Shown: positions 4,772-36,670 of the stretch, one piece after another | How the letters are laid out: every line of letters starts with the position of its first letter | Numbering within the stretch: position 1 is the stretch's first letter | IMG/VR virus record: IMGVR_UViG_3300034683_000117 | Location: 13,065 to 77,064 of that record | Length of the DNA stretch: 64,000 nt | Strand: one strand, 5' to 3' | DNA from: a virus | Position numbers and translations under genes: made by a program | The notes under the pieces: model-generated | Seen by the model: only the letters and a program-made list of their open reading frames with translations | Told to the model about the DNA's origin: nothing | Databases searched by the model: none

Positions 4772-5650
4772 CTAATAATTTGTGATTAATACTTCTTGCG
4801 TAAACGCAGTGTTATTTTTGCGGTGACTGTTATTATTTGTATAAGCAAAATCAAGATTATGGACTATATACTGTTTTGCCCACTCATTTAATACCGTGTT
4901 TCCTTTATCGCGATACACAGAAACATTACTCAAAGCAAACTTAACATGTTGTGTATTAAGCATATCCAAATATTGATACATACGCATTTCATCATTTATA
5001 GTCCAATTGTTATTTTCTGTATAGGCGGTTACAGTTGGATAATACGGAGGGTCAAGATACACAAAATCATCTTGATTGAATTGGTTAAATTCTGTAAAAT
5101 CCTTATTATAAAATTCTATATTTTTGCATTTAGCAGCATAATTAAATTGCTTAAATCTATCTCGCATGTTTTGACTAAAACTTCTATTGCCACAAGATTG
5201 ATTAAACAAGCCACTACGATTAAATCTAATACTGTAGTTTAAAGAAAAACATGATAAGATAAATAATAACCTTGGTGATGGGTTTTGATTATAGACCATG
5301 TCTCGAAAATAATAATATTCTTTTTTAGTGTTTTTACCTAAATTATATTGCTGGATGATCGTGTCGATTATATTTAATTCCTTATCAACATCGCAAGTAG
5401 CTAAATATTGGACTAATTCAGCAATAAATTTGTTTCCATCATTATAAACAATCTTATTTGCGTTAACATTAATCGCAACATTACATCCACCACCAAACAA
5501 ATCATAAAAAATATTAATATGCTCTGGGAATAGTGGCAATATTTGTGGTAACAGCTTAAACTTACCGCCAGTATAGTTAAGTGGAGATTTAACTAATTGT
5601 AAAGAATCAAAATATATTTTAATACCCCCATTCGAAGTTACATAGAACAT
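4772..5650 (-). CDS. Dam-family DNA adenine methyltransferase (T4-Dam-like)
   Basis: SPLNYTGGK, DLFGGG, IRFNRSG.FN, VYLDPPY, EVLITNY. Confidence 0.9.
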   Translation of the reverse strand: MFYVTSNGGIKIYFDSLQLVKSPLNYTGGKFKLLPQILPLFPEHINIFYDLFGGGCNVAINVNANKIVYNDGNKFIAELVQYLATCDVDKELNIIDTIIQQYNLGKNTKKEYYYFRDMVYNQNPSPRLLFILSCFSLNYSIRFNRSGLFNQSCGNRSFSQNMRDRFKQFNYAAKCKNIEFYNKDFTEFNQFNQDDFVYLDPPYYPTVTAYTENNNWTINDEMRMYQYLDMLNTQHVKFALSNVSVYRDKGNTVLNEWAKQYIVHNLDFAYTNNNSHRKNNTAFTQEVLITNY

Positions 5651-19756: not shown

Positions 19757-20653
19757 TTAAATCGTTGCAACAACATCCAACGGACTGCGATTTACTGCGG
19801 TTTTTAAAGCATTGCTATCAACATGTGTATATATTTGCGTTGTGGATATATTACTATGTCCTAAAATTTCCTGCAACTGTCTGATATCCATATTGCCACT
19901 CTGATAATTCAGTGTCGCAAATGTATGTCGTAAAGTATGAACAGCAACGCCGCGTTTGTTCTCTATATTTAACCCGCTTCGACCTATTGCGTTCTTTACG
20001 ATACGTTCAACCACATCATGAGATATGCGATTGCCGATTTCTGACACAAACAGCGGCCTGTTCGGATCGGTGCAGCCCTGCGTATAATCTGCTAACTGTT
20101 TAACCATGTTATCGCTTAAATATACATTACGCTCTTTCCCTCCCTTCCCTTTGATAACAATATACCCATCTTTTATATCACCAACATTAATAGACACAAG
20201 CTCAGATAGTCTCATGCCGGTTGTAAGCAATAAGCTTACTATCAGTCTATCTCGCACCATGTTGCGCCCTTTGATATTATCAATAAGCTGTCGGCACTGT
20301 TCTATGGTGAAGTACCTTGGTATGGTTTTATCTATTTTAGGCGCATCGATATCCTGCATTATATTGTTATCTATAATCTTACGCATATGCAAATATGCAA
20401 AAAACGATCTTAAAGACGCAATCTTTCTACGCCTTGTAGAAGCGCTGCATCCGTCTTGCGATAATTTATATAACCATGCATAAATATGATCTATTGTGAC
20501 GTCTTTTAACGCTAATGAGTCAATCGCAAAATAATTGTTGGCCATATACGAATACCACGATGCTATATCTTGTATATATTGTTTAATGGTATTGTCACTT
20601 TTATTAACACCAACTAAATACATTTTATAATCATCTAATATCGTACTGTACAT
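19757..20653 (-). CDS. Tyrosine recombinase, XerC/D-like, catalytically intact
   Basis: TGMRLSEL, KGKGGKER, HTLRHTFAT, LGHSNISTTQIYTH. Confidence 0.95.
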   Translation of the reverse strand: MYSTILDDYKMYLVGVNKSDNTIKQYIQDIASWYSYMANNYFAIDSLALKDVTIDHIYAWLYKLSQDGCSASTRRRKIASLRSFFAYLHMRKIIDNNIMQDIDAPKIDKTIPRYFTIEQCRQLIDNIKGRNMVRDRLIVSLLLTTGMRLSELVSINVGDIKDGYIVIKGKGGKERNVYLSDNMVKQLADYTQGCTDPNRPLFVSEIGNRISHDVVERIVKNAIGRSGLNIENKRGVAVHTLRHTFATLNYQSGNMDIRQLQEILGHSNISTTQIYTHVDSNALKTAVNRSPLDVVATI

Positions 20654-22082: not shown

Positions 22083-22538
22083 TTATATCTGTCTATGTCC
22101 CCATATATGAGCTACACCATCAATTACTTCTATAACTTCAACTTCTTCTATATCGCACCCAAAATCCCAATCTGCCGGAATATCTCTCCAGCTTGCGTAT
22201 TCGTATACAGCATCACTTTCAACATCGTGTACAACAACCGCTCCATCCCAATCACACAAATATATTGTATCGCTGTCATCTCCCGCATTGTCTACAATTT
22301 CAATCAAATGCTCTACAGCATCATCAAAATCATATTCATATGGATTTAACAAATCTTTCAACTCATCGGTATTAACCAATATTTCTGCCCGATGGTTATA
22401 TACTGGCTCGGCAATTCCTAAATTGTCTCCCCGTGATATATTAATTTTATCTCCATATTTATATATCAACGGATAACCACTATTTGCCAATGATTCTCTG
22501 GCTGTTTCCAGCAATTCCTTAGCTTGTTCTCTTGTCAT
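22083..22538 (-). CDS. Acidic early protein
   Basis: GGAGG RBS before MTREQ; D/E-rich. Confidence 0.65.
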   Translation of the reverse strand: MTREQAKELLETARESLANSGYPLIYKYGDKINISRGDNLGIAEPVYNHRAEILVNTDELKDLLNPYEYDFDDAVEHLIEIVDNAGDDSDTIYLCDWDGAVVVHDVESDAVYEYASWRDIPADWDFGCDIEEVEVIEVIDGVAHIWGHRQI

Positions 22539-22552
22539 TGTGATACCTCCTT

Positions 22553-23018
22553 TCAATCTTCGGCTACTAAATATATAGATTCTAACCCCGCCCATGGCGC
22601 ATTAGCTGTTCCACTGTTCAACTTAAACGCATTAGCTATTGCTTCCTTGTCAAAATCGCCCACCCAGTCCAATGCGTCATCATCGTCGCTAAATTCGACA
22701 TTATCTGTCCAATCATATTCTACCCATTCACCATCGGGTATCTGATAACTAACATTTGTATAAAACTCTATATCATCAAGCTTATAATCTGACAAATCTT
22801 CACCATCTTCAAAAAAAACATGTACCATTGTTCATATACTCAATAACTACTGGTTCATCGTCTATTTTGACGTTTACAAATACATTGCCGAACATGCCTT
22901 TTTGTTCCTCTTCCTGAATTATTTCGTGCAAACCTTGTTGCGAAATATATTCGGCCAAATCGTTTAACATAATATAATCCGCTAAATCCATCATGTTTTC
23001 TTTTTTCAGTTTTAACAT
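22553..23018 (-). CDS. Very acidic early protein, split into two ORFs (22809-23018, 22553-22828) at a T8 run
   Basis: Removing one T at 22811-22818 reads NNGTCFFEDGED continuously. Confidence 0.55.
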
Positions 23019-23030
23019 TTTTATTTCCTC

Positions 23031-23468
23031 CTATTCCCATTCCAGTCCATATTGTTCTACTAAGTCTATAAAATCACCATCAATGCTCGTATCAACATAT
23101 ACAGCCGTTCCATCATTATCTTCATCATCAATAACAACAAGGCCCGCGGACAACCATCCTTCCACCTTTCCATTGTTTAAGAAATCTACCATTTCAACAG
23201 AATCATTTTTCCAATATAAATTAAAATGTTTCATGTTCTCTAACAGCTCGCTTGATTGGTTGATAGCCCAATCATAATTATCTATTGCATATTGTGCATC
23301 TTCTATATCTTCAGGAATAGTTGTACTATCCGCTGTCCATATAGTATCCGATGTTGTCCCATTGTCCCAAGTTGCAGCCAGTACCTTCGCTCCATCCCTT
23401 GTATGCGCTATAAAAAATGTATAGCGATCACCATCATCCAATACAAATGCTGTTTCTTTATTTGCCAT
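23031..23468 (-). CDS. Acidic early protein
   Basis: GGAGG RBS, preceded by class-1 promoter. Confidence 0.7.
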   Translation of the reverse strand: MANKETAFVLDDGDRYTFFIAHTRDGAKVLAATWDNGTTSDTIWTADSTTIPEDIEDAQYAIDNYDWAINQSSELLENMKHFNLYWKNDSVEMVDFLNNGKVEGWLSAGLVVIDDEDNDGTAVYVDTSIDGDFIDLVEQYGLEWE

Positions 23469-23507
23469 TTTTAATTCCTCCTAAATATTTTTTATTTTGT
23501 ATCTATA

Positions 23508-23539
23508 ATATAGAGTCTCAACGCTCTATATTTTAAACC
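23508..23539 (-). promoter_or_regulatory. Class-1 phage promoter motif (GGTTTA-N21-TATAT), with inverted repeat
   Basis: GGTTTAAAATATAGAGCGTTGAGACTCTATAT; one of six copies. Confidence 0.7.
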
Positions 23540-23553
23540 CTGCATAAAAATAT

Positions 23554-23751
23554 TTATTGTTTATTATTTTGATATTCGTTTATATATTTATCATAATTTT
23601 GCCATATATTGCCTAAATTGATGTCTTGGCATAATATACCATCCACAATTGCATAATATAATTTTAGCACAATTTGTTTGTCTAGTAAATCCTGCACCGC
23701 CTTTCTAATTAGAAAATCTTGTAATTCTGTCATTTTTAATCTTCTTTCCAA
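23554..23751 (-). CDS. Hypothetical protein
   Basis: Co-oriented ORF; likely start MTELQ. Confidence 0.5.
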   Translation of the reverse strand: MERRLKMTELQDFLIRKAVQDLLDKQIVLKLYYAIVDGILCQDINLGNIWQNYDKYINEYQNNKQ

Positions 23752-23865
23752 AATATAGAAGTTTTGTCATAATACAACCGTATAATATCTTTGGCTGTAT
23801 TATATAAACCATATAGTGTGATTATAAGTATTGATACTGTAATTATCTTTTGCAATAACATATTA

Positions 23866-24231
23866 TCACCCTTGAATATAATTTACTGCATCAATATACT
23901 GGTCAACTATATTTTGGAACCTTGCAATAGCTTCTTGTAGTGTAATACGCCCCATAAACTCCACCCCGCAATCTTTATTATTTGCATCTATACGTTTGAT
24001 TTCTAGTCCATAAAACGTATATGATAATACAAATATACTATCGCAAGCATGTACTACAAGCGGCAAATCGCTTTGCGTTATTTCCATAAACCAATTTAAA
24101 GCCTCCTGTAAATTATTTTTAGCTTCTGTTTTGGTTTTACCATATTCTTTCCATGGTCCCAAAGCGGCGACATATCCGCTGTGTTTACGCATCAACGTAT
24201 CTTTATATTCTGTTATGTCAATTTTTAACAT
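23866..24231 (-). CDS. Protein with HicB-like N-terminal motif
   Basis: GYVA..YGKTKTEAKNNLQEAL; start corrected to MLKID (the track's GTG lies inside the RNA gene). Confidence 0.5.
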   Translation of the reverse strand: MLKIDITEYKDTLMRKHSGYVAALGPWKEYGKTKTEAKNNLQEALNWFMEITQSDLPLVVHACDSIFVLSYTFYGLEIKRIDANNKDCGVEFMGRITLQEAIARFQNIVDQYIDAVNYIQG

Positions 24232-24250
24232 AATATCACCCCTTATTTTT

Positions 24251-24329
24251 TGGTGGAGCTGCGGGGAATCGAACCCCGGTCCGGAGTTTTGCACGTTGGC
24301 CTTTCACTCCGTCGATACCTTCCAGCCCC
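24251..24329 (-). ncRNA. Mini-tmRNA: tRNA-like domain only (79 nt), no mRNA-like domain
   Basis: GGGGCTG/CAGCTCC acceptor with G3.U70, ACCA end, stemless D loop GAAGGTATCGAC, helix GGAGT/ACTCC closed by 18 nt, GGAC, T arm CGGGG-TTCGATT-CCCCG. Confidence 0.85.
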
Positions 24330-24334
24330 TATCT

Positions 24335-24664
24335 TTACACTCTTGCTAATGCCCTACACCCTATGATCTTACCCTGGTCATCTCTGACAGAATCATCTGG
24401 TATAACCAAATCTTGCCTATCTTTAGCAGCTTGGGCCACTAAAGCAGATACTATATACAATGTATCTGGCGCAGGATCTGGCAATCCGTCAACAGTACCA
24501 TATAATGTCTTATTAATATTAACATTGATACCATTAATATTAATAACATCTATAGTTTGTCTTGTCGTTGCGCACCTAGCCACTTGACCTGATGCTGGGA
24601 TTGTTATATCCCCAGCATCTGTCAAGATATTGATATCGTGAGGTGTTAAGTTAATTATCTTCAT
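24335..24664 (-). CDS. NLTPH-family small protein; candidate Crn4-like ring nuclease
   Basis: INLTPH..P.SG..AR..GLP.P..T.YIVS..VA..R.DL..P..VRD..G.IIGCR.L; family-to-function link recalled, not verified. Confidence 0.5.
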   Translation of the reverse strand: MKIINLTPHDINILTDAGDITIPASGQVARCATTRQTIDVININGINVNINKTLYGTVDGLPDPAPDTLYIVSALVAQAAKDRQDLVIPDDSVRDDQGKIIGCRALARV

Positions 24665-25137
24665 ATTTTCACCTTCTCTATAATAAAATCTTTTACTGTT
24701 TGTTCAATATCTTCAAAATCGTATAAATACATGTTACATGCAACATCCCAAATGTCGGCTACATCATCATCAGTCAATTTATCCACATATTCTGGGTAAT
24801 GATCCTTTATATATTTTATTGCATGGTTATACAAAATAGTTTCTCTGTTTTTGTCTAAAATATATTCATTATACATATACCATGCGTTTTGTATATCTTT
24901 AAGTATATCACCGCTAAAGTCTACAATACCTATTGCCTCATTGTAAAACCCAGCGTTATACAATTTTTCAAGATTGTTAAACAATTTATGTGAATATATA
25001 CTTACGTACAAATCCGCAACTGTATTTATCGCGTCCTCTATATAGCCTTCATATTCAAATGCCACCTCATCGCACATCATGGCATCATCTTGTCCCTGTA
25101 ACAGATTCTCTACATCGTATTTTTTATATTCTAACAT
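24661..25137 (-). CDS. Ocr-like acidic protein, paralogue 1
   Basis: IEDAINTVADLYVSIYSHKLF resembles T7 Ocr [21 protein letters not shown]. Confidence 0.55.
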   Translation of the reverse strand: MLEYKKYDVENLLQGQDDAMMCDEVAFEYEGYIEDAINTVADLYVSIYSHKLFNNLEKLYNAGFYNEAIGIVDFSGDILKDIQNAWYMYNEYILDKNRETILYNHAIKYIKDHYPEYVDKLTDDDVADIWDVACNMYLYDFEDIEQTVKDFIIEKVKI

Positions 25138-25174
25138 TTTTCTTCCCTCCAATTTTATTATTTATGTATCTATA

Positions 25175-25206
25175 ATATAGAGTTTTGATACTCTATATTA
25201 TAAACC
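25175..25206 (-). promoter_or_regulatory. Class-1 phage promoter motif with 12-bp inverted repeat
   Basis: GGTTTA-N21-TATAT; plus strand TATAATATAGAG-N8-CTCTATATTATA. Confidence 0.7.
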
Positions 25207-25519: not shown

Positions 25520-26020
25520 TCATTTTACCTCCTGTAAAACGTTATTTTGATTAACAAGTTTTAATTCAAATATTCTATTTTTATCTAGCTTTCTTTTTAC
25601 ATCTTGACGTTCTATAGTATTATAACTACCGTCAAGTATACCTTGCGTGTACTCTGTTATTTCCCAATTCCTAGCCTCAAAATATTGTTTAAATGTTTTA
25701 TATGCCACCAGCTTTTGTTGCATATCGTATTTATTAGCTTGTAATTGTCTAATATAACGATATGTATACTTGTCGTTTAACTCAAACACACCATAACAAA
25801 TCTTATTATTATTTATTTGTGTATTCTTGCGATAAATTCTTTTTAATTCATCTATTACTTTTTTGCTTTGACCGCATATTGCCCAATATCCCAACTGGTT
25901 ACGCATATCATAATCTAAATTAAACATCATCTTTTTGTTACCGATTATAACATATGCCTTGAACGATTCCGATGCATACCTGTAACAAGTATATGCATAA
26001 TTAATTTTATCCTTAGCCAT
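25520..26020 (-). CDS. Hypothetical basic protein
   Basis: GGAGG RBS; TTGACA upstream near 26140. Confidence 0.6.
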   Translation of the reverse strand: MAKDKINYAYTCYRYASESFKAYVIIGNKKMMFNLDYDMRNQLGYWAICGQSKKVIDELKRIYRKNTQINNNKICYGVFELNDKYTYRYIRQLQANKYDMQQKLVAYKTFKQYFEARNWEITEYTQGILDGSYNTIERQDVKRKLDKNRIFELKLVNQNNVLQEVK

Positions 26021-26147: not shown

Positions 26148-26630
26148 TTATTGATCACCTCCTTTTATCCATTCCACCAATTCATCAACGATGGATTCGA
26201 TATCTGCGAACTTGTTTCCATCATCAATATTTGTTAGTGCTAGTGCTAGATCGCTGACTTTTATTTTGTCTACAAATTCTGGATAGCGATCTTGAATAAT
26301 TCTAACTGCATAGTTAAACACTATCTCGTCAAAGTTATTATAAATTTGCCGCTCGGTATAATAGTACCATGCTTGTCCAATGTTTTTGATTAAGTCTCCA
26401 GCATCGCCATATTCTTGTATAACATCATCATAATTGCCACTATTATACAGTATTGGAACAGCTTCAAATAATACATCGTTCCATATACTGACCGATGAAT
26501 CAGCTGTCTCTGTTATTGCTTCTCTAATTTCAACATCACCAGCCACATCTAACACGCGGTCAAGGACTTGTTCGTCGTCCTGCAATTCCCCTAACAGATT
26601 CTCTACATCGTATTTTTTAAATTTTAACAT
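26148..26630 (-). CDS. Ocr-like acidic protein, paralogue 2
   Basis: IREAITETADSSVSIWNDVLF and DLIKNIGQAWY align with Ocr helices; shares KKYDVENLL with paralogue 1. Confidence 0.55.
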   Translation of the reverse strand: MLKFKKYDVENLLGELQDDEQVLDRVLDVAGDVEIREAITETADSSVSIWNDVLFEAVPILYNSGNYDDVIQEYGDAGDLIKNIGQAWYYYTERQIYNNFDEIVFNYAVRIIQDRYPEFVDKIKVSDLALALTNIDDGNKFADIESIVDELVEWIKGGDQ

Positions 26631-26637
26631 TTTTAAT

Positions 26638-26701
26638 TCCTCCAATTTTATTATTTTATTTTATATAATATATAGTATTTAACAATGTATTTTTAAACCT
26701 T
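26638..26701 (-). repeat. 64-bp exact repeat (class-1 promoter plus RBS), identical to 27533-27596
   Basis: Direct comparison. Confidence 0.9.
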
Positions 26702-26741
26702 GCCTCAATTTTTTTACCAGCATTTTTATTGAACGGTTCTA

Positions 26742-27532: not shown

Positions 27533-27596
27533 TCCTCCAATTTTATTATTTTATTTTATATAATATATAGTATTTAACAATGTATTTTTAAACCTT
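27533..27596 (-). repeat. 64-bp exact repeat, second copy (class-1 promoter plus RBS)
   Basis: Direct comparison with 26638-26701. Confidence 0.9.
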
Positions 27597-28107: not shown

Positions 28108-28653
28108 TTATTTTATTGAGTAGCCAGCTTCATTAAGTGCCTTTTTTATGAGTTTGAATTTTTTGGAAATAGCCATAACCGATACACCTTGCAGTTTGGC
28201 TATTTCTGTCATGCTTAAACCAGCCAGCTTAAGTTTGATTATATCGTGATACTTTTTTGGAATTGTATCCCAAGCTTCATAATCGCTATCAAACTGACTA
28301 CTAACAGCCAGTATATCACGTGTAGCAACTAGATCGTCGCTTTCTGATTCACGCTCACGCGTGATATAGTCTAGCGACTCATGCATGATATTATATTTAT
28401 ACTGATGTTTCATAGCATTATAAGCGCAAGTCGCTAGATATGTAAGGCCGGGTATAAATGCGTGTTTTTTGTCGTTAGTCACAAACTTGATCATAATGTT
28501 ATCAACTATATCTATAGCTTCATCAAAAGTTAAACGACAAACTTTACTGATATACTTAATAGCCAACCGATATTGCTCCTCATTATATAAATCGATCGCT
28601 CCTTTCGCAGCTTGTACATATTGATACTGTTTGTTGTTATCCATTTTTTGCAT
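28108..28653 (-). CDS. ECF-like sigma-70 family factor
   Basis: Region 2-like DEAIDIV..TYLATCAYNAM; region 4 HTH IPKKYHDIIKL..GLSMTEIAKLQGVS..AISK. Confidence 0.75.
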   Translation of the reverse strand: MQKMDNNKQYQYVQAAKGAIDLYNEEQYRLAIKYISKVCRLTFDEAIDIVDNIMIKFVTNDKKHAFIPGLTYLATCAYNAMKHQYKYNIMHESLDYITRERESESDDLVATRDILAVSSQFDSDYEAWDTIPKKYHDIIKLKLAGLSMTEIAKLQGVSVMAISKKFKLIKKALNEAGYSIK

Positions 28654-36514: not shown

Positions 36515-36670
36515 TATGTACCCATATGTTAGTGGGGAATTTAAGCCTTTGGAGTGTCAAACAAACACAAGTAGGTTTATCCAAAAGTGGACATGATGAA
36601 CAAGGAAGGAAACTTAAACTTTATAAAGTTTTGTAAGTTTTCTGTAACAGTATAACTATTTTTTAAAATT
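36515..36670 (+). ncRNA. omegaRNA and right end of tnpB element (end near 36650, guide approximately TATAACTATTTTTTAAAATT)
   Basis: GTACCC..GGGGAATTTAAGCCTTTGGAGTGTC..GACATGATGAACAAGGAA; terminal AAGTTTT repeats ending GTAACAG. Confidence 0.65.

What the first reader, a model, noticed from the sequence alone, without database searches (positions are those of the whole stretch)
23866..25206. One promoter drives four candidate counter-defence functions
Seen: a class-1 promoter at 25175-25206 is followed by an Ocr-like gene, an overlapping NLTPH gene, the mini-tmRNA 5 nt after its stop, and a HicB-like ORF 19 nt later. Inference: the operon could counter type I RM/BREX, cyclic-oligoadenylate signalling, translation-targeting toxins and HicA-type RNases together. 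RNA processing would also cut the polycistron. Each functional call is tentative.
Basis: inference. Interest (0 to 1): 0.75.

Follow-up and report, generated by a model that had tools for sequence, protein, structure and literature searches.

The report
Phage accessory operon with embedded mini-tmRNA
A phage operon packs an Ocr-like acidic protein, a Crn4b-type enzyme that destroys CRISPR alarm molecules, a headless ribosome-rescue RNA and three small unknown proteins behind one repeated promoter; each part is a known kind, and they do not travel together in other phages.

Summary
The anatomy is as described. On the minus strand, a repeated promoter-like motif (25206-25171) is followed by a 158-aa acidic ORF, a 109-aa NLTPH ORF overlapping it by 4 nt, a 79-nt mini-tmRNA 5 nt after its stop, and a 121-aa ORF 19 nt later.

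- **NLTPH protein:** a clear Crn4b ring nuclease. The profile matches PDB 9r7b at E 7.6e-28, the AF2 model has pLDDT 96.8, and the catalytic Thr/His/Arg are invariant.
- **Acidic ORF:** a distant member of the PHROG that holds T7 Ocr. Support is moderate and its fold was not tested.
- **RNA:** a real tmRNA tRNA-like domain without the message part (Rfam 65.9 bits). This kind is known from mycobacteriophage DS6A, and this scan has found it on other phage DNA many times.
- **"HicB-like" ORF:** only weakly supported. It has no Pfam hit, no DNA-binding tail and no HicA partner.

The four parts do not co-occur elsewhere. 106 Crn4b loci, 5 ORF-C loci and 7 mini-tmRNA loci each lack the other parts.

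No terminator insulates the unit, so "one promoter" is an oversimplification. Co-transcription could not be tested.

Verdict: an ordinary mosaic host-takeover/anti-defence cassette with an unusually placed RNA gene.

The parts
25171..25206 (-). Promoter-like motif P5 (GGTTTA-N20-CTCTATATTATA), with an 8-bp inverted repeat (ATATAGAG/CTCTATAT) in its spacer
   Evidence: Six copies against 0 expected; alignment of four copies. Function as a promoter is inferred from its position before the ribosome-binding site and start codon. No transcript data.
24661..25137 (-). ORF A, 158 aa, acidic (net -21, pI 4.17), distant Ocr-like family member
   Evidence: phrog_2568 'ocr-like' E 1e-4 and phrog_3460 E 4.5e-6. 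T7 Ocr itself is in phrog_2568, E 2.5e-57. tblastn finds 46 Bacillus phage records at 28-33% identity, some annotated Ocr-like. hhalign against T7 Ocr gives probability 69%. Charge.
24335..24664 (-). ORF B, 109 aa, Crn4b-type ring nuclease (NLTPH motif); start overlaps the ORF A stop by 4 nt
   Evidence: AF2 pLDDT 96.8. Foldseek 9r7b E 2e-11, 40% identity. Profile against PDB 9r7b_A E 7.6e-28. PADLOC Unk_01 E 6e-30. T7/H9/R94 invariant in 54 homologues.
24251..24329 (-). 79-nt mini-tmRNA: tRNA-like domain only (7-bp acceptor with G3-U, UCGAC, helix 2a, GGAC, T arm, ACCA)
   Evidence: Rfam RF00023 65.9 bits (gathering score 47), with model positions 26-337 replaced by 18 nt. Fold -30 kcal/mol with the expected architecture. 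ARAGORN calls neither a tRNA nor a tmRNA here.
23866..24231 (-). ORF C, 121 aa, two-domain protein of unknown function (N-terminal beta-beta-beta-alpha module weakly HicB-N/dsRBD-like)
   Evidence: 16 distant homologues; AF2 pLDDT 93.9. No significant PDB or BFVD match. hhalign against E. coli HicB gives probability 52% over 43 columns. ESM Atlas neighbours.
23736..23861 (-). ORF D, 41 aa, hydrophobic (one putative membrane helix)
   Evidence: ORF list and sequence; no family hit.
23554..23733 (-). ORF E, 59 aa, unknown
   Evidence: ORF list; no family hit.
23504..23539 (-). Next promoter-like copy (P6), marking the start of the following cassette of acidic ORFs
26664..26699 (-). Upstream promoter-like copy (P4) heading the cassette with the ORF A paralogue; no terminator lies between it and P5
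28108..28653 (-). Phage sigma-70/ECF-like factor gene with its own sigma-A-like promoter (TTGCAA-17-TATAAT) and a terminator; candidate reader of the six motifs
   Evidence: TIGR02937 E 5e-11, 42.5 bits against a cut-off of 42.9. Sigma70_r4_2 E 5e-4. Promoter and terminator scan.

Best explanation
This is one cassette of a mosaic early/middle host-takeover island in a roughly 36% G+C phage. The host is probably a Bacillota species. The phage is known only from a 77-kb fragment from subsurface and soil metagenomes.

A phage-specific promoter motif heads a gap-free string of genes. The motif has six copies and is possibly read by the phage's own ECF-like sigma factor. The genes are:
1. A strongly acidic protein distantly related to the Ocr DNA mimic. 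It is a candidate inhibitor of type I restriction/BREX.
2. A translationally coupled Crn4b ring nuclease. It should cut cyclic oligoadenylates and so silence type III CRISPR (and perhaps cA3-CBASS) effectors.
3. A 79-nt tmRNA tRNA-like domain.
4. Three small proteins of unknown function.

The RNA would be cut out of the transcript by RNase P at its 5' end and by 3' trimming. That would split the message into an Ocr-like/Crn4b part and an ORF C-D-E part. Once alanylated and bound to SmpB, it would most likely compete with host tmRNA, either blocking tagging or giving tag-less rescue.

Shown here: the anatomy, the family memberships of ORF B and the RNA, and the lack of conserved linkage. Inferred: promoter activity, co-transcription, RNA processing and all biochemical activities. 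The parts look independently acquired, not a co-evolved four-part system.
For: - Anatomy and spacing.
- Six-fold motif against 0 expected.
- No internal promoter motif, and no terminator on the coding strand from 26759 to 19500.
- Crn4b. Paper PMC12830947 shows that H15 and R112 are essential, that the enzyme cleaves cA3, cA4 and cA6, and that Crn4b occurs in 11 of 28,137 phage genomes as a proposed anti-CRISPR.
- Ocr-like. A 43%-identical paralogue heads the previous cassette.
- Mini-tmRNA. Eight phage examples fold to the same architecture, with an invariant G3-U and differing acceptor pairs.
- DS6A precedent and its inhibition of tmRNA in E. coli: PMC4131195 and PMC11915505.
- Lack of linkage.
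- Neighbouring cassettes hold more small acidic proteins.
Against: - No transcript data exist: no RNA holder is listed. Promoter use, co-transcription and RNA excision are therefore unproven.
- The Ocr link is weak: E 1e-4 to the PHROG, hhalign probability 69%, no BLASTP similarity to T7 Ocr, no PDB profile hit and no fold test.
Synteny in true sister phages is therefore unknown.
- The placement between two ORFs differs from the tRNA-cluster setting of other mini-tmRNAs. That could hint at a local functional tie.
Confidence: 0.7

Rival explanations
1. One reading: a coordinated four-way counter-defence operon. Ocr-like would act against type I R-M/BREX, the ring nuclease against cOA signalling, the mini-tmRNA against translation-targeting toxins, and a HicB-like decoy against HicA RNases.
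For: - Two of the four calls hold: Crn4b strongly and Ocr-like moderately.
- ORF C shares a G-x-T-x-x-E-A-x-x-N-L-x-x-A-L-x-W-type motif with the N-terminal domain of E. coli HicB (hhalign probability 52%).
- Two HicB-like clusters appear among its ESM Atlas structural neighbours (TM 0.57-0.58 normalised on the small target, 0.38-0.39 on the query).
- Anti-defence genes are known to cluster in phages (general knowledge).
Against: - ORF C has no Pfam, NCBIfam, PADLOC or PDB-sequence match to HicB.
- No HicB chain appears among the top structural rows. The best Z is 6.1, which is within the tool's stated noise range.
- ORF C lacks the DNA-binding tail, and no HicA is found in the 77-kb record.
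- The only published data on a TLD-only phage tmRNA show inhibition of trans-translation, not protection from toxins (PMC4131195, PMC11915505).
- The parts never co-occur in 118 related loci.
Confidence: 0.1
2. The RNA and a flanking protein form a functional pair. One version: the phage fights type III CRISPR on two levels. Crn4b removes cOA, while the mini-tmRNA frees ribosomes stalled on mRNAs cut by Csm6/Csx1-type RNases without tagging phage proteins. A second version: the RNA acts as a decoy like the t(m)RNA fragments bound by AcrIIIA1. A third: ORF C, with its dsRBD-like N-terminal module, binds the RNA.
For: - The RNA lies 5 nt after the Crn4b stop and 19 nt before ORF C, unlike other mini-tmRNAs, which sit in tRNA clusters.
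- AcrIIIA1 co-purifies with tRNA and tmRNA fragments that reach Cas10-Csm and bind RNase R (PMC11662646).
- The ORF C N-terminal 47 residues superpose on dsRNA-binding domains at Z about 5 and rmsd 1.4-2.8.
Against: - No co-occurrence. 106 Crn4b loci lack a mini-tmRNA.
- Five mini-tmRNA-bearing records, including two complete cultured phage genomes, lack Crn4b.
- Five ORF C loci lack both.
- Z about 5 is at noise level by the tool's own note.
- ORF C gives no tblastn match in the collection of cultured phage genomes. Similarity to AcrIIIA1 itself was not tested directly.
Confidence: 0.08
3. The RNA-like stretch is a relic or attachment site, not an expressed RNA. It could be a leftover of a captured ssrA gene or an attP for integration into the host tmRNA or tRNA-Ala gene, used with the tyrosine integrase 3.6 kb downstream.
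For: - A tyrosine integrase gene lies at 20653-19757.
- The 28-nt 3' end is identical to the ends of many bacterial tRNA-Ala and tmRNA genes.
- Phages commonly integrate into such 3' ends (general knowledge).
Against: - An attP needs only the 3' part. Here the 5' acceptor strand, the UCGAC loop, helix 2a and the GGAC linker are all intact and score 65.9 bits over both model ends.
- The same architecture recurs in unrelated phages with different acceptor pairs and an invariant G3-U, including phages with large tRNA arrays.
- The stretch is 3.6 kb from the integrase, not adjacent.
- G+C is 62% against 33% for the operon. That fits selection on structure.
Confidence: 0.05
4. The repeated motif is mainly a recombination or cassette-boundary element, not a promoter, or is both. 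The genes would then be transcribed from a more distant promoter as part of a long read-through message.
For: - Two copies are exact 64-bp duplicates flanking two genes.
- No terminators separate the cassettes from 26759 down to 19500.
- The fit to sigma-A is imperfect: TTAAAA, 18 nt, TATATT, 9 of 12 matches.
Against: - Every copy sits at a fixed distance upstream of a strong ribosome-binding site and start codon, in the coding orientation.
- An AT-rich -10-like block is invariant.
- A phage sigma-like gene with its own sigma-A promoter and terminator lies just upstream. This is the classic layout of a phage middle-promoter class.
Confidence: 0.07

Closest known systems
Crn4b ring nuclease (PDB 9r7b; PMC12830947), earlier called 'Unk01' in type III CRISPR loci
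   Same: 40% identity over the whole length, the same predicted fold, the same conserved Thr/His/Arg, and the short Crn4b form. The paper already notes phage and plasmid copies and proposes them as anti-CRISPRs.
   Different: This copy is phage-borne, translationally coupled to an Ocr-like gene and followed directly by an RNA gene. Its activity and substrate range are untested.
T7 gp0.3 Ocr and the 'ocr-like anti-restriction' PHROG 2568, including Bacillus phage members (Tsamsa, pW2, KoopaTroopa, Jabberwock)
   Same: Strongly acidic, similar length to the Bacillus phage members, first gene after an early-type promoter, and shared D-A-I-x-x-x-A-D and Q-A-x-x-Y motifs in the hhalign alignment.
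   Different: Only 28-33% identity to the Bacillus phage proteins, no direct BLASTP similarity to T7 Ocr, about 40 aa longer than T7 Ocr, duplicated in this phage, and fold not tested.
TLD-only (CDS-less) tmRNA of mycobacteriophage DS6A (PMC4131195; PMC11915505). The same kind occurs unannotated in Stenotrophomonas phage Jojan60 and Streptomyces phage LuckySocke.
   Same: Little more than the tmRNA tRNA-like domain: alanine identity pair, UCGAC loop, helix 2a, T arm, and no resume codon, tag frame or pseudoknots.
   Different: It is embedded between two protein genes of an mRNA operon. Jojan60 and LuckySocke carry theirs in a tRNA cluster. CCA is encoded here, whereas LuckySocke lacks it.
HicB antitoxin (E. 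coli b1438; Pfam HicB_lk_antitox)
   Same: A roughly 45-residue beta-beta-beta-alpha module with a G-x-T-x-x-E-A...A-L-x-W/F-type motif.
   Different: No family-level match, a different C-terminal domain (four strands plus a helix in place of a DNA-binding domain), and no HicA partner. The module also resembles dsRNA-binding domains equally weakly.
tRNA genes co-transcribed with mRNAs, for example the E. coli thrU-tyrU-glyT-thrT-tufB operon (general knowledge)
   Same: A tRNA-shaped RNA inside a polycistronic transcript, released by RNase P with cleavage of the message.
   Different: Here the RNA is a tmRNA head, and it lies between genes for likely anti-defence proteins.

Membership tests
Crn4 ring nuclease (Crn4b subtype) | Sequence homology to solved Crn4 proteins | tested here: met
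   Profile of 54 homologues against PDB: 9r7b_A (Crn4b) E 7.6e-28, 9sma_A (Crn4a) E 3.9e-18. PADLOC Unk_01 E 6.2e-30.
Crn4 ring nuclease (Crn4b subtype) | Crn4 fold (globular core plus extended beta-hairpin arm) | tested here: met
   AF2 pLDDT 96.8. The seven Foldseek matches with E <= 0.001 are all Crn4 chains, E 2e-11 to 5e-9, TM 0.73-0.81; the next hit has E 0.57. The dimer was not modelled.
Crn4 ring nuclease (Crn4b subtype) | Catalytic His and Arg plus the conserved Thr (H15, R112, T13 in Crn4a; H17, R103 in Crn4b) | tested here: met
   T7, H9 and R94 are invariant in the 54-sequence alignment. They align to the NLTPH and VRD motifs of 9r7b. Roles are from PMC12830947.
Crn4 ring nuclease (Crn4b subtype) | Short form lacking the roughly 10-aa insert of Crn4a | tested here: met
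   109 aa. It aligns to Crn4b without the gap that is needed against Crn4a.
Crn4 ring nuclease (Crn4b subtype) | Cleaves cyclic oligoadenylates | not testable with these tools
   Needs enzyme assays.
Ocr (T7 gp0.3) DNA-mimic family | Family-level sequence match | tested here: inconclusive
   phrog_2568 E 1e-4 over nearly the full length. T7 Ocr is in the same PHROG. hhalign against T7 Ocr gives probability 69%. BLASTP gives nothing. The PDB profile search finds no Ocr.
Ocr (T7 gp0.3) DNA-mimic family | Strong negative charge | tested here: met
   34 D+E against 13 K+R, pI 4.17. T7 Ocr has 34 against 6, pI 4.05.
Ocr (T7 gp0.3) DNA-mimic family | All-helical dimer that mimics bent B-DNA | not tested
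Ocr (T7 gp0.3) DNA-mimic family | Blocks type I restriction/BREX | not testable with these tools
   Needs plating assays.
tmRNA (RF00023), TLD-only form as in phage DS6A | Match to the tmRNA covariance model at both ends | tested here: met
   65.9 bits against a gathering score of 47, model positions 1-374.
tmRNA (RF00023), TLD-only form as in phage DS6A | Alanine identity (G3-U), A discriminator, CCA end | tested here: met
   GGGGCUG pairs with CAGCUCC, giving G3-U, then ACCA.
tmRNA (RF00023), TLD-only form as in phage DS6A | tmRNA-type D region (no stem, UCGAC), helix 2a, GGAC linker, T arm | tested here: met
   Alignment to the Rfam consensus. ARAGORN does not call a tRNA.
tmRNA (RF00023), TLD-only form as in phage DS6A | mRNA-like domain (resume codon, tag frame, pseudoknots) of canonical tmRNA | tested here: not met
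   312 model positions are replaced by an 18-nt loop. The RNA is therefore not a canonical tmRNA. It fits the TLD-only kind (PMC4131195).
tmRNA (RF00023), TLD-only form as in phage DS6A | Binds SmpB, is alanylated, affects trans-translation | not testable with these tools
   No phage SmpB is found in the record. It would have to use the host's.
HicB antitoxin | Match to HicB family models | tested here: not met
   None of the 16 family members matches a HicB family model (such as PF15919) in Pfam at E <= 1. The NCBIfam and PADLOC scans of ORF C alone and the PDB profile search gave none either.
HicB antitoxin | HicB N-terminal fold | tested here: inconclusive
   hhalign against E. coli HicB gives probability 52% over 43 columns. 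ESM Atlas rows 5 and 9 are HicB-like, TM 0.58 and 0.57 by target and 0.39 and 0.38 by query. VIA and Foldseek list dsRBDs at Z about 5 and no HicB chain.
HicB antitoxin | C-terminal DNA-binding domain (RHH or HTH) | tested here: not met
   Residues 56-121 form four strands plus one long helix. The best matches are unrelated small domains at Z <= 6.1.
HicB antitoxin | Adjacent hicA toxin gene | tested here: not met
   No PF07927 match in the 77-kb record. The neighbours are the RNA gene and a 41-aa hydrophobic ORF. The record is a fragment.
Single transcription unit (operon) | Promoter upstream, no internal promoter or terminator, tight spacing | tested here: met
   Gaps of -4, 5, 19, 4 and 2 nt. 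The motif occurs only at 25206 and 23539. No terminator-like site on the coding strand.
Single transcription unit (operon) | One RNA molecule spanning the genes | not testable with these tools
   No RNA run is listed for this DNA.

The most novel reading that the evidence does not exclude
The mini-tmRNA is placed directly after the ring-nuclease gene because the two act on the same defence. Crn4b removes the cyclic-oligoadenylate signal. The tag-less tmRNA head then either frees ribosomes stalled on transcripts already cut by cOA-activated RNases, or acts as an RNA decoy for the Cas10-Csm/RNase R axis as the AcrIIIA1-bound t(m)RNA fragments do. That would make it the first phage-encoded RNA component of an anti-type III strategy.
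Probability: 0.08. Interest if true: 0.8.

Novelty: new member of a known kind. Interest (0 to 1): 0.4.

Why it matters
The operon gives a concrete, compact test bed of about 1.7 kb.

- Phage Crn4b was proposed as an anti-CRISPR but has not been shown to act as one. Here it sits coupled to an Ocr-like gene in a host-takeover island, which supports that role by context.
- TLD-only tmRNAs are common in phages but almost unstudied. This copy lies inside an mRNA between likely anti-defence genes, so one construct could show three things: whether the RNA is excised, whether excision controls expression of the flanking genes, and whether it matters for escape from RNA-cutting defences.
- Otherwise the finding is ordinary. 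It is a mosaic cluster of independently mobile accessory genes, as seen in many phages.

Tried and rejected
The two nearest Crn4b relatives (77% and 76% identity) could not be checked for synteny. The viral and metagenome scans returned only relatives at 59% identity or less.
- No RNA holder is listed for this DNA. Read laying was not used, because DNA contigs cannot show transcripts.
- blastn of the operon against cultured phages gave no match.
- An exact pattern for close copies of the RNA in viral contigs gave none. A relaxed pattern found five.
- The genome-contig scan with the RNA's 28-nt 3' end hit mostly ordinary tRNA-Ala genes, plus tmRNA ends of high-G+C bacteria. It says nothing about host or attB.
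- ORF A: the word-index search found only itself and the search for related loci found nothing. BLASTP against T7 Ocr gave nothing and the PDB profile search found no Ocr. The ESM Atlas model was too poor to use.
- ORF C: the first search found only itself. Foldseek PDB and BFVD gave nothing below 1e-3. VIA gave Z <= 6.1 with no HicB chain listed. tblastn against cultured phages gave no match.
- Alignment A2 was too divergent for the search for related loci.
- MAFFT/RNAalifold on eight mini-tmRNAs misaligned the ends, so each was folded alone.
- Considered and rejected: the 142-aa GTG-start version of ORF C. It would run through the RNA gene and is not supported by homologues.
Full report
**Context**

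The window is bases 13065-77064 of a 77-kb linear IMG/VR viral record, with CheckV completeness 54%. It is held in four DNA runs of one subsurface/soil study. G+C is 35.6%. Genes from 1 to 28653 lie on the minus strand, and the late structural genes run on the plus strand from 31384.

**Observation**

Read on the minus strand, the stretch contains the following, in order:
- A promoter-like motif at 25206-25171.
- A GGAGGG ribosome-binding site.
- ORF A (25137-24661, 158 aa).
- ORF B (24664-24335, 109 aa, MKIINLTPH...), whose ATG overlaps the ORF A stop in ATGA.
- Five bases, then a 79-nt RNA gene (24329-24251) that ends in ACCA.
- Nineteen bases holding AAGGGGTG, then ORF C (24231-23866, 121 aa).

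It omitted ORF D (23861-23736, 41 aa, hydrophobic) and ORF E (23733-23554, 59 aa). These fill the space up to the next copy of the motif at 23539.

**The promoter**

GGTTTA-N16-21-CTNTATATTATA occurs six times, all on the minus strand between 28013 and 23504. None is expected in 100 shuffles. A 16-nt core is exact in four copies. Each copy precedes a ribosome-binding site and start codon by about 25-35 nt.

Just upstream of the first copy lies a 181-aa ORF (28653-28108). It matches sigma-70/ECF models over its whole length but sits at the cut-off: TIGR02937 scores 42.5 bits against 42.9. It has its own TTGCAA-17-TATAAT promoter and a terminator. This layout fits a phage-specific middle-promoter class, but that is an inference.

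The simple scan finds no terminator-like site on the coding strand between 26759 and 19500. The unit is therefore not insulated. Transcripts from the copy at 26699 can read in, and transcripts from 25206 can read on into the next cassette. "One promoter drives" is an oversimplification. No RNA run is listed for this DNA, so co-transcription rests on spacing alone.

**ORF B is a Crn4b ring nuclease**

- A search found 185 homologues, none with a Pfam domain.
- In a 54-sequence alignment, N5, T7, P8, H9, R30, S73, R83, D85, R94 and G102 are invariant.
- The AlphaFold model is very confident, pLDDT 96.8.
- The seven Foldseek matches with E <= 0.001 are all Crn4 chains (9r7b at E 2e-11 and 40% identity, plus 9sma and 9qs9). 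The next hit has E 0.57.
- The profile hits Crn4b 9r7b_A at E 7.6e-28.
- PADLOC's "Unk_01, sometimes fused to CARF" hits at E 6e-30. Unk01 is the earlier name of Crn4.

The Crn4 paper (PMC12830947) shows that H15 and R112 of Crn4a are essential and that T13 is conserved. It shows that the enzymes cut cA3, cA4 and cA6. [quoted passage not shown] T7, H9 and R94 here are the equivalents.

I found 14 cultured-phage records with homologues, all annotated as hypothetical and in unrelated neighbourhoods. The gene is a new member of a described family.

**ORF A is probably Ocr-like**

- It has net charge -21 and pI 4.17, against pI 4.05 for T7 Ocr.
- It hits phrog_2568 "ocr-like anti-restriction" at E 1e-4 over almost its full length, and phrog_3460 at E 4.5e-6.
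- T7 Ocr itself belongs to phrog_2568 at E 2.5e-57. The Bacillus phage proteins that ORF A matches by tblastn also belong to it, at about E 1e-41. Those tblastn matches cover 46 records at 28-33% identity, with E down to 1e-7.
- A five-sequence profile aligns to T7 Ocr residues 33-110 at hhalign probability 69%. The alignment includes the D-A-I-x-x-x-A-D and Q-A-x-x-Y motifs.
- A 43%-identical paralogue heads the previous cassette.

Against this, BLASTP to T7 Ocr finds nothing and the PDB profile search does not find Ocr. The fold was not tested. I rate homology at about 0.6 and actual anti-restriction function lower.

**The RNA**

Rfam's tmRNA model matches at 65.9 bits (gathering score 47) over both model ends, with 312 central positions replaced by 18 nt. 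The RNA folds into:
- a 7-bp acceptor with G3-U,
- an unpaired GGUAUCGAC region,
- a 6-bp helix 2a,
- GGAC,
- a 5-bp T arm,
- ACCA.

ARAGORN calls neither a tRNA nor a tmRNA. The acceptor and T arm are identical to many bacterial tRNA-Ala genes, as expected for a tmRNA head. The UCGAC/helix 2a/GGAC core is tmRNA-specific.

This kind is already described. Mycobacteriophage DS6A carries a "TLD only" tmRNA, and such a molecule inhibits endogenous tmRNA in E. coli, perhaps by titrating SmpB (PMC4131195; PMC11915505).

I found more copies in viral contigs: L108-L112, one contig with two copies. Copies also lie unannotated in cultured phages Jojan60 and LuckySocke, where they sit inside tRNA clusters.

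All eight fold alike. G3-U is invariant while the other acceptor pairs differ. Earlier notes of this scan report the same RNA kind in many other phages.

What is unusual here is the placement between two ORFs of an mRNA operon. The 12-bp acceptor/T-arm stack and the RCCA end are standard RNase P substrate features. Excision would therefore cut the message 5 nt after the Crn4b stop, and 3' trimming would act within 19 nt of the ORF C start. These processing steps are inferred from general knowledge of tRNA and tmRNA maturation. The 77-kb record has no SmpB gene.

**ORF C**

The word-index search found only the protein itself. The exhaustive search found 16 relatives at 28-38% identity. They share G-x-T-K-E-E-A-K-x-N-L-x-x-A-L-x-W-Y-F.

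The model is confident (pLDDT 93.9) and has two modules: beta-beta-beta-alpha, then four strands and a long helix. No PDB or BFVD match is significant. VIA-align gives Z <= 6.1, which the tool states is within noise. Residues 1-47 fall on dsRNA-binding domains at Z about 5, and no HicB chain is listed.

In favour of "HicB-like":
- hhalign against E. coli HicB gives probability 52% over 43 columns.
- Two HicB-like clusters appear among the ESM Atlas neighbours of residues 1-60.

Against it:
- No HicB family model matches.
- There is no DNA-binding tail.
- No HicA is found in the record.

I treat it as a protein of unknown function with a weakly HicB-N-like module. The anti-HicA idea is unsupported.

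**Linkage**

- None of 106 Crn4b loci (viral and metagenomic) has a tmRNA-like RNA or homologues of ORFs A or C.
- Five ORF C loci lack the RNA and Crn4b.
- Five records with mini-tmRNAs, two of them complete cultured phage genomes, lack Crn4b.

The parts are independently mobile.

**Conclusion**

The RNA is real but of a known kind with an untested role, and the HicB call is weak.

The best reading is a mosaic accessory cassette of a phage host-takeover island, not a co-evolved four-part counter-defence system. The most novel reading still open is a functional tie between the ring nuclease and the tag-less tmRNA head against type III CRISPR. It draws on the AcrIIIA1 work, in which t(m)RNA fragments take part in anti-CRISPR action (PMC11662646). 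I give it about 8%.

Noticed in passing
window 28108-28653 (-), with promoter 28713-28685 and terminator 28095-28074: A 181-aa sigma-70/ECF-like ORF (TIGR02937 42.5 bits against a cut-off of 42.9). It has its own near-consensus sigma-A promoter and a terminator, and lies directly upstream of the six repeated promoter motifs. It is a likely phage sigma for that promoter class.
   Followed up: partly
window 26640-26702 and 27540-27596 (-): Two of the six promoter copies are near-exact long duplicates that include the ribosome-binding site. They flank two genes, so they may also serve as recombination points.
   Followed up: no
window 25171-25206 and 23504-23539 (-): Only these two promoter copies carry an 8-bp inverted repeat (ATATAGAG...CTCTATAT) across the spacer. 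It could be an operator or hairpin.
   Followed up: no
window 26148-26630 (-): A paralogue of ORF A (43% identity, net charge -22) is the first gene of the previous cassette.
   Followed up: partly
window 22083-23468 (-): The next cassette encodes small, very acidic ORFs (145 aa with net charge -25, 91 aa with net charge -22). They have no Pfam match.
   Followed up: no
window 36546-36607 (+): A RAGATH-18 RNA motif matches above the gathering score (62.3 bits against 44.9), in the plus-strand gene block.
   Followed up: no
window 19757-20653 (-): A tyrosine integrase/recombinase gene (Phage_integrase E 4e-37). The phage may be temperate.
   Followed up: no
L109 1562-1638 and 5108-5183 (-): One 17.9-kb viral contig carries two TLD-only mini-tmRNAs 3.5 kb apart (77.4 and 55.1 bits).
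   Followed up: partly
L111 6191-6694 (-): A peptide-deformylase-like ORF (HEIDHLNG motif, read by eye) lies about 1.5 kb upstream of that contig's mini-tmRNA.
   Followed up: no
L243 2501-2583 (Stenotrophomonas phage Jojan60) and L244 2501-2581 (Streptomyces phage LuckySocke): Unannotated TLD-only mini-tmRNAs sit inside tRNA clusters of cultured phages. In Jojan60 an annotated 'hypothetical protein' CDS overlaps the first 29 nt of the RNA.
   Followed up: partly
L118 2224-2649 and L121 3277-3684: Homologues of the window's 166-aa basic ORF (25520-26020) lie 0.3-1.4 kb upstream of ORF C homologues in two large phage contigs. This is a recurring pairing that the window keeps in adjacent cassettes.
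   Followed up: no
L120 5360-5427 (+): A Pistol ribozyme match (49.2 bits against 34.5) lies about 1.1 kb downstream of an ORF C homologue.
   Followed up: no
L025 and L026, about 4925-5020 (+): A 96-nt tRNA-shaped stretch lies about 550 nt downstream of a distant Crn4b homologue. It is probably an ordinary long-arm tRNA.
   Followed up: no
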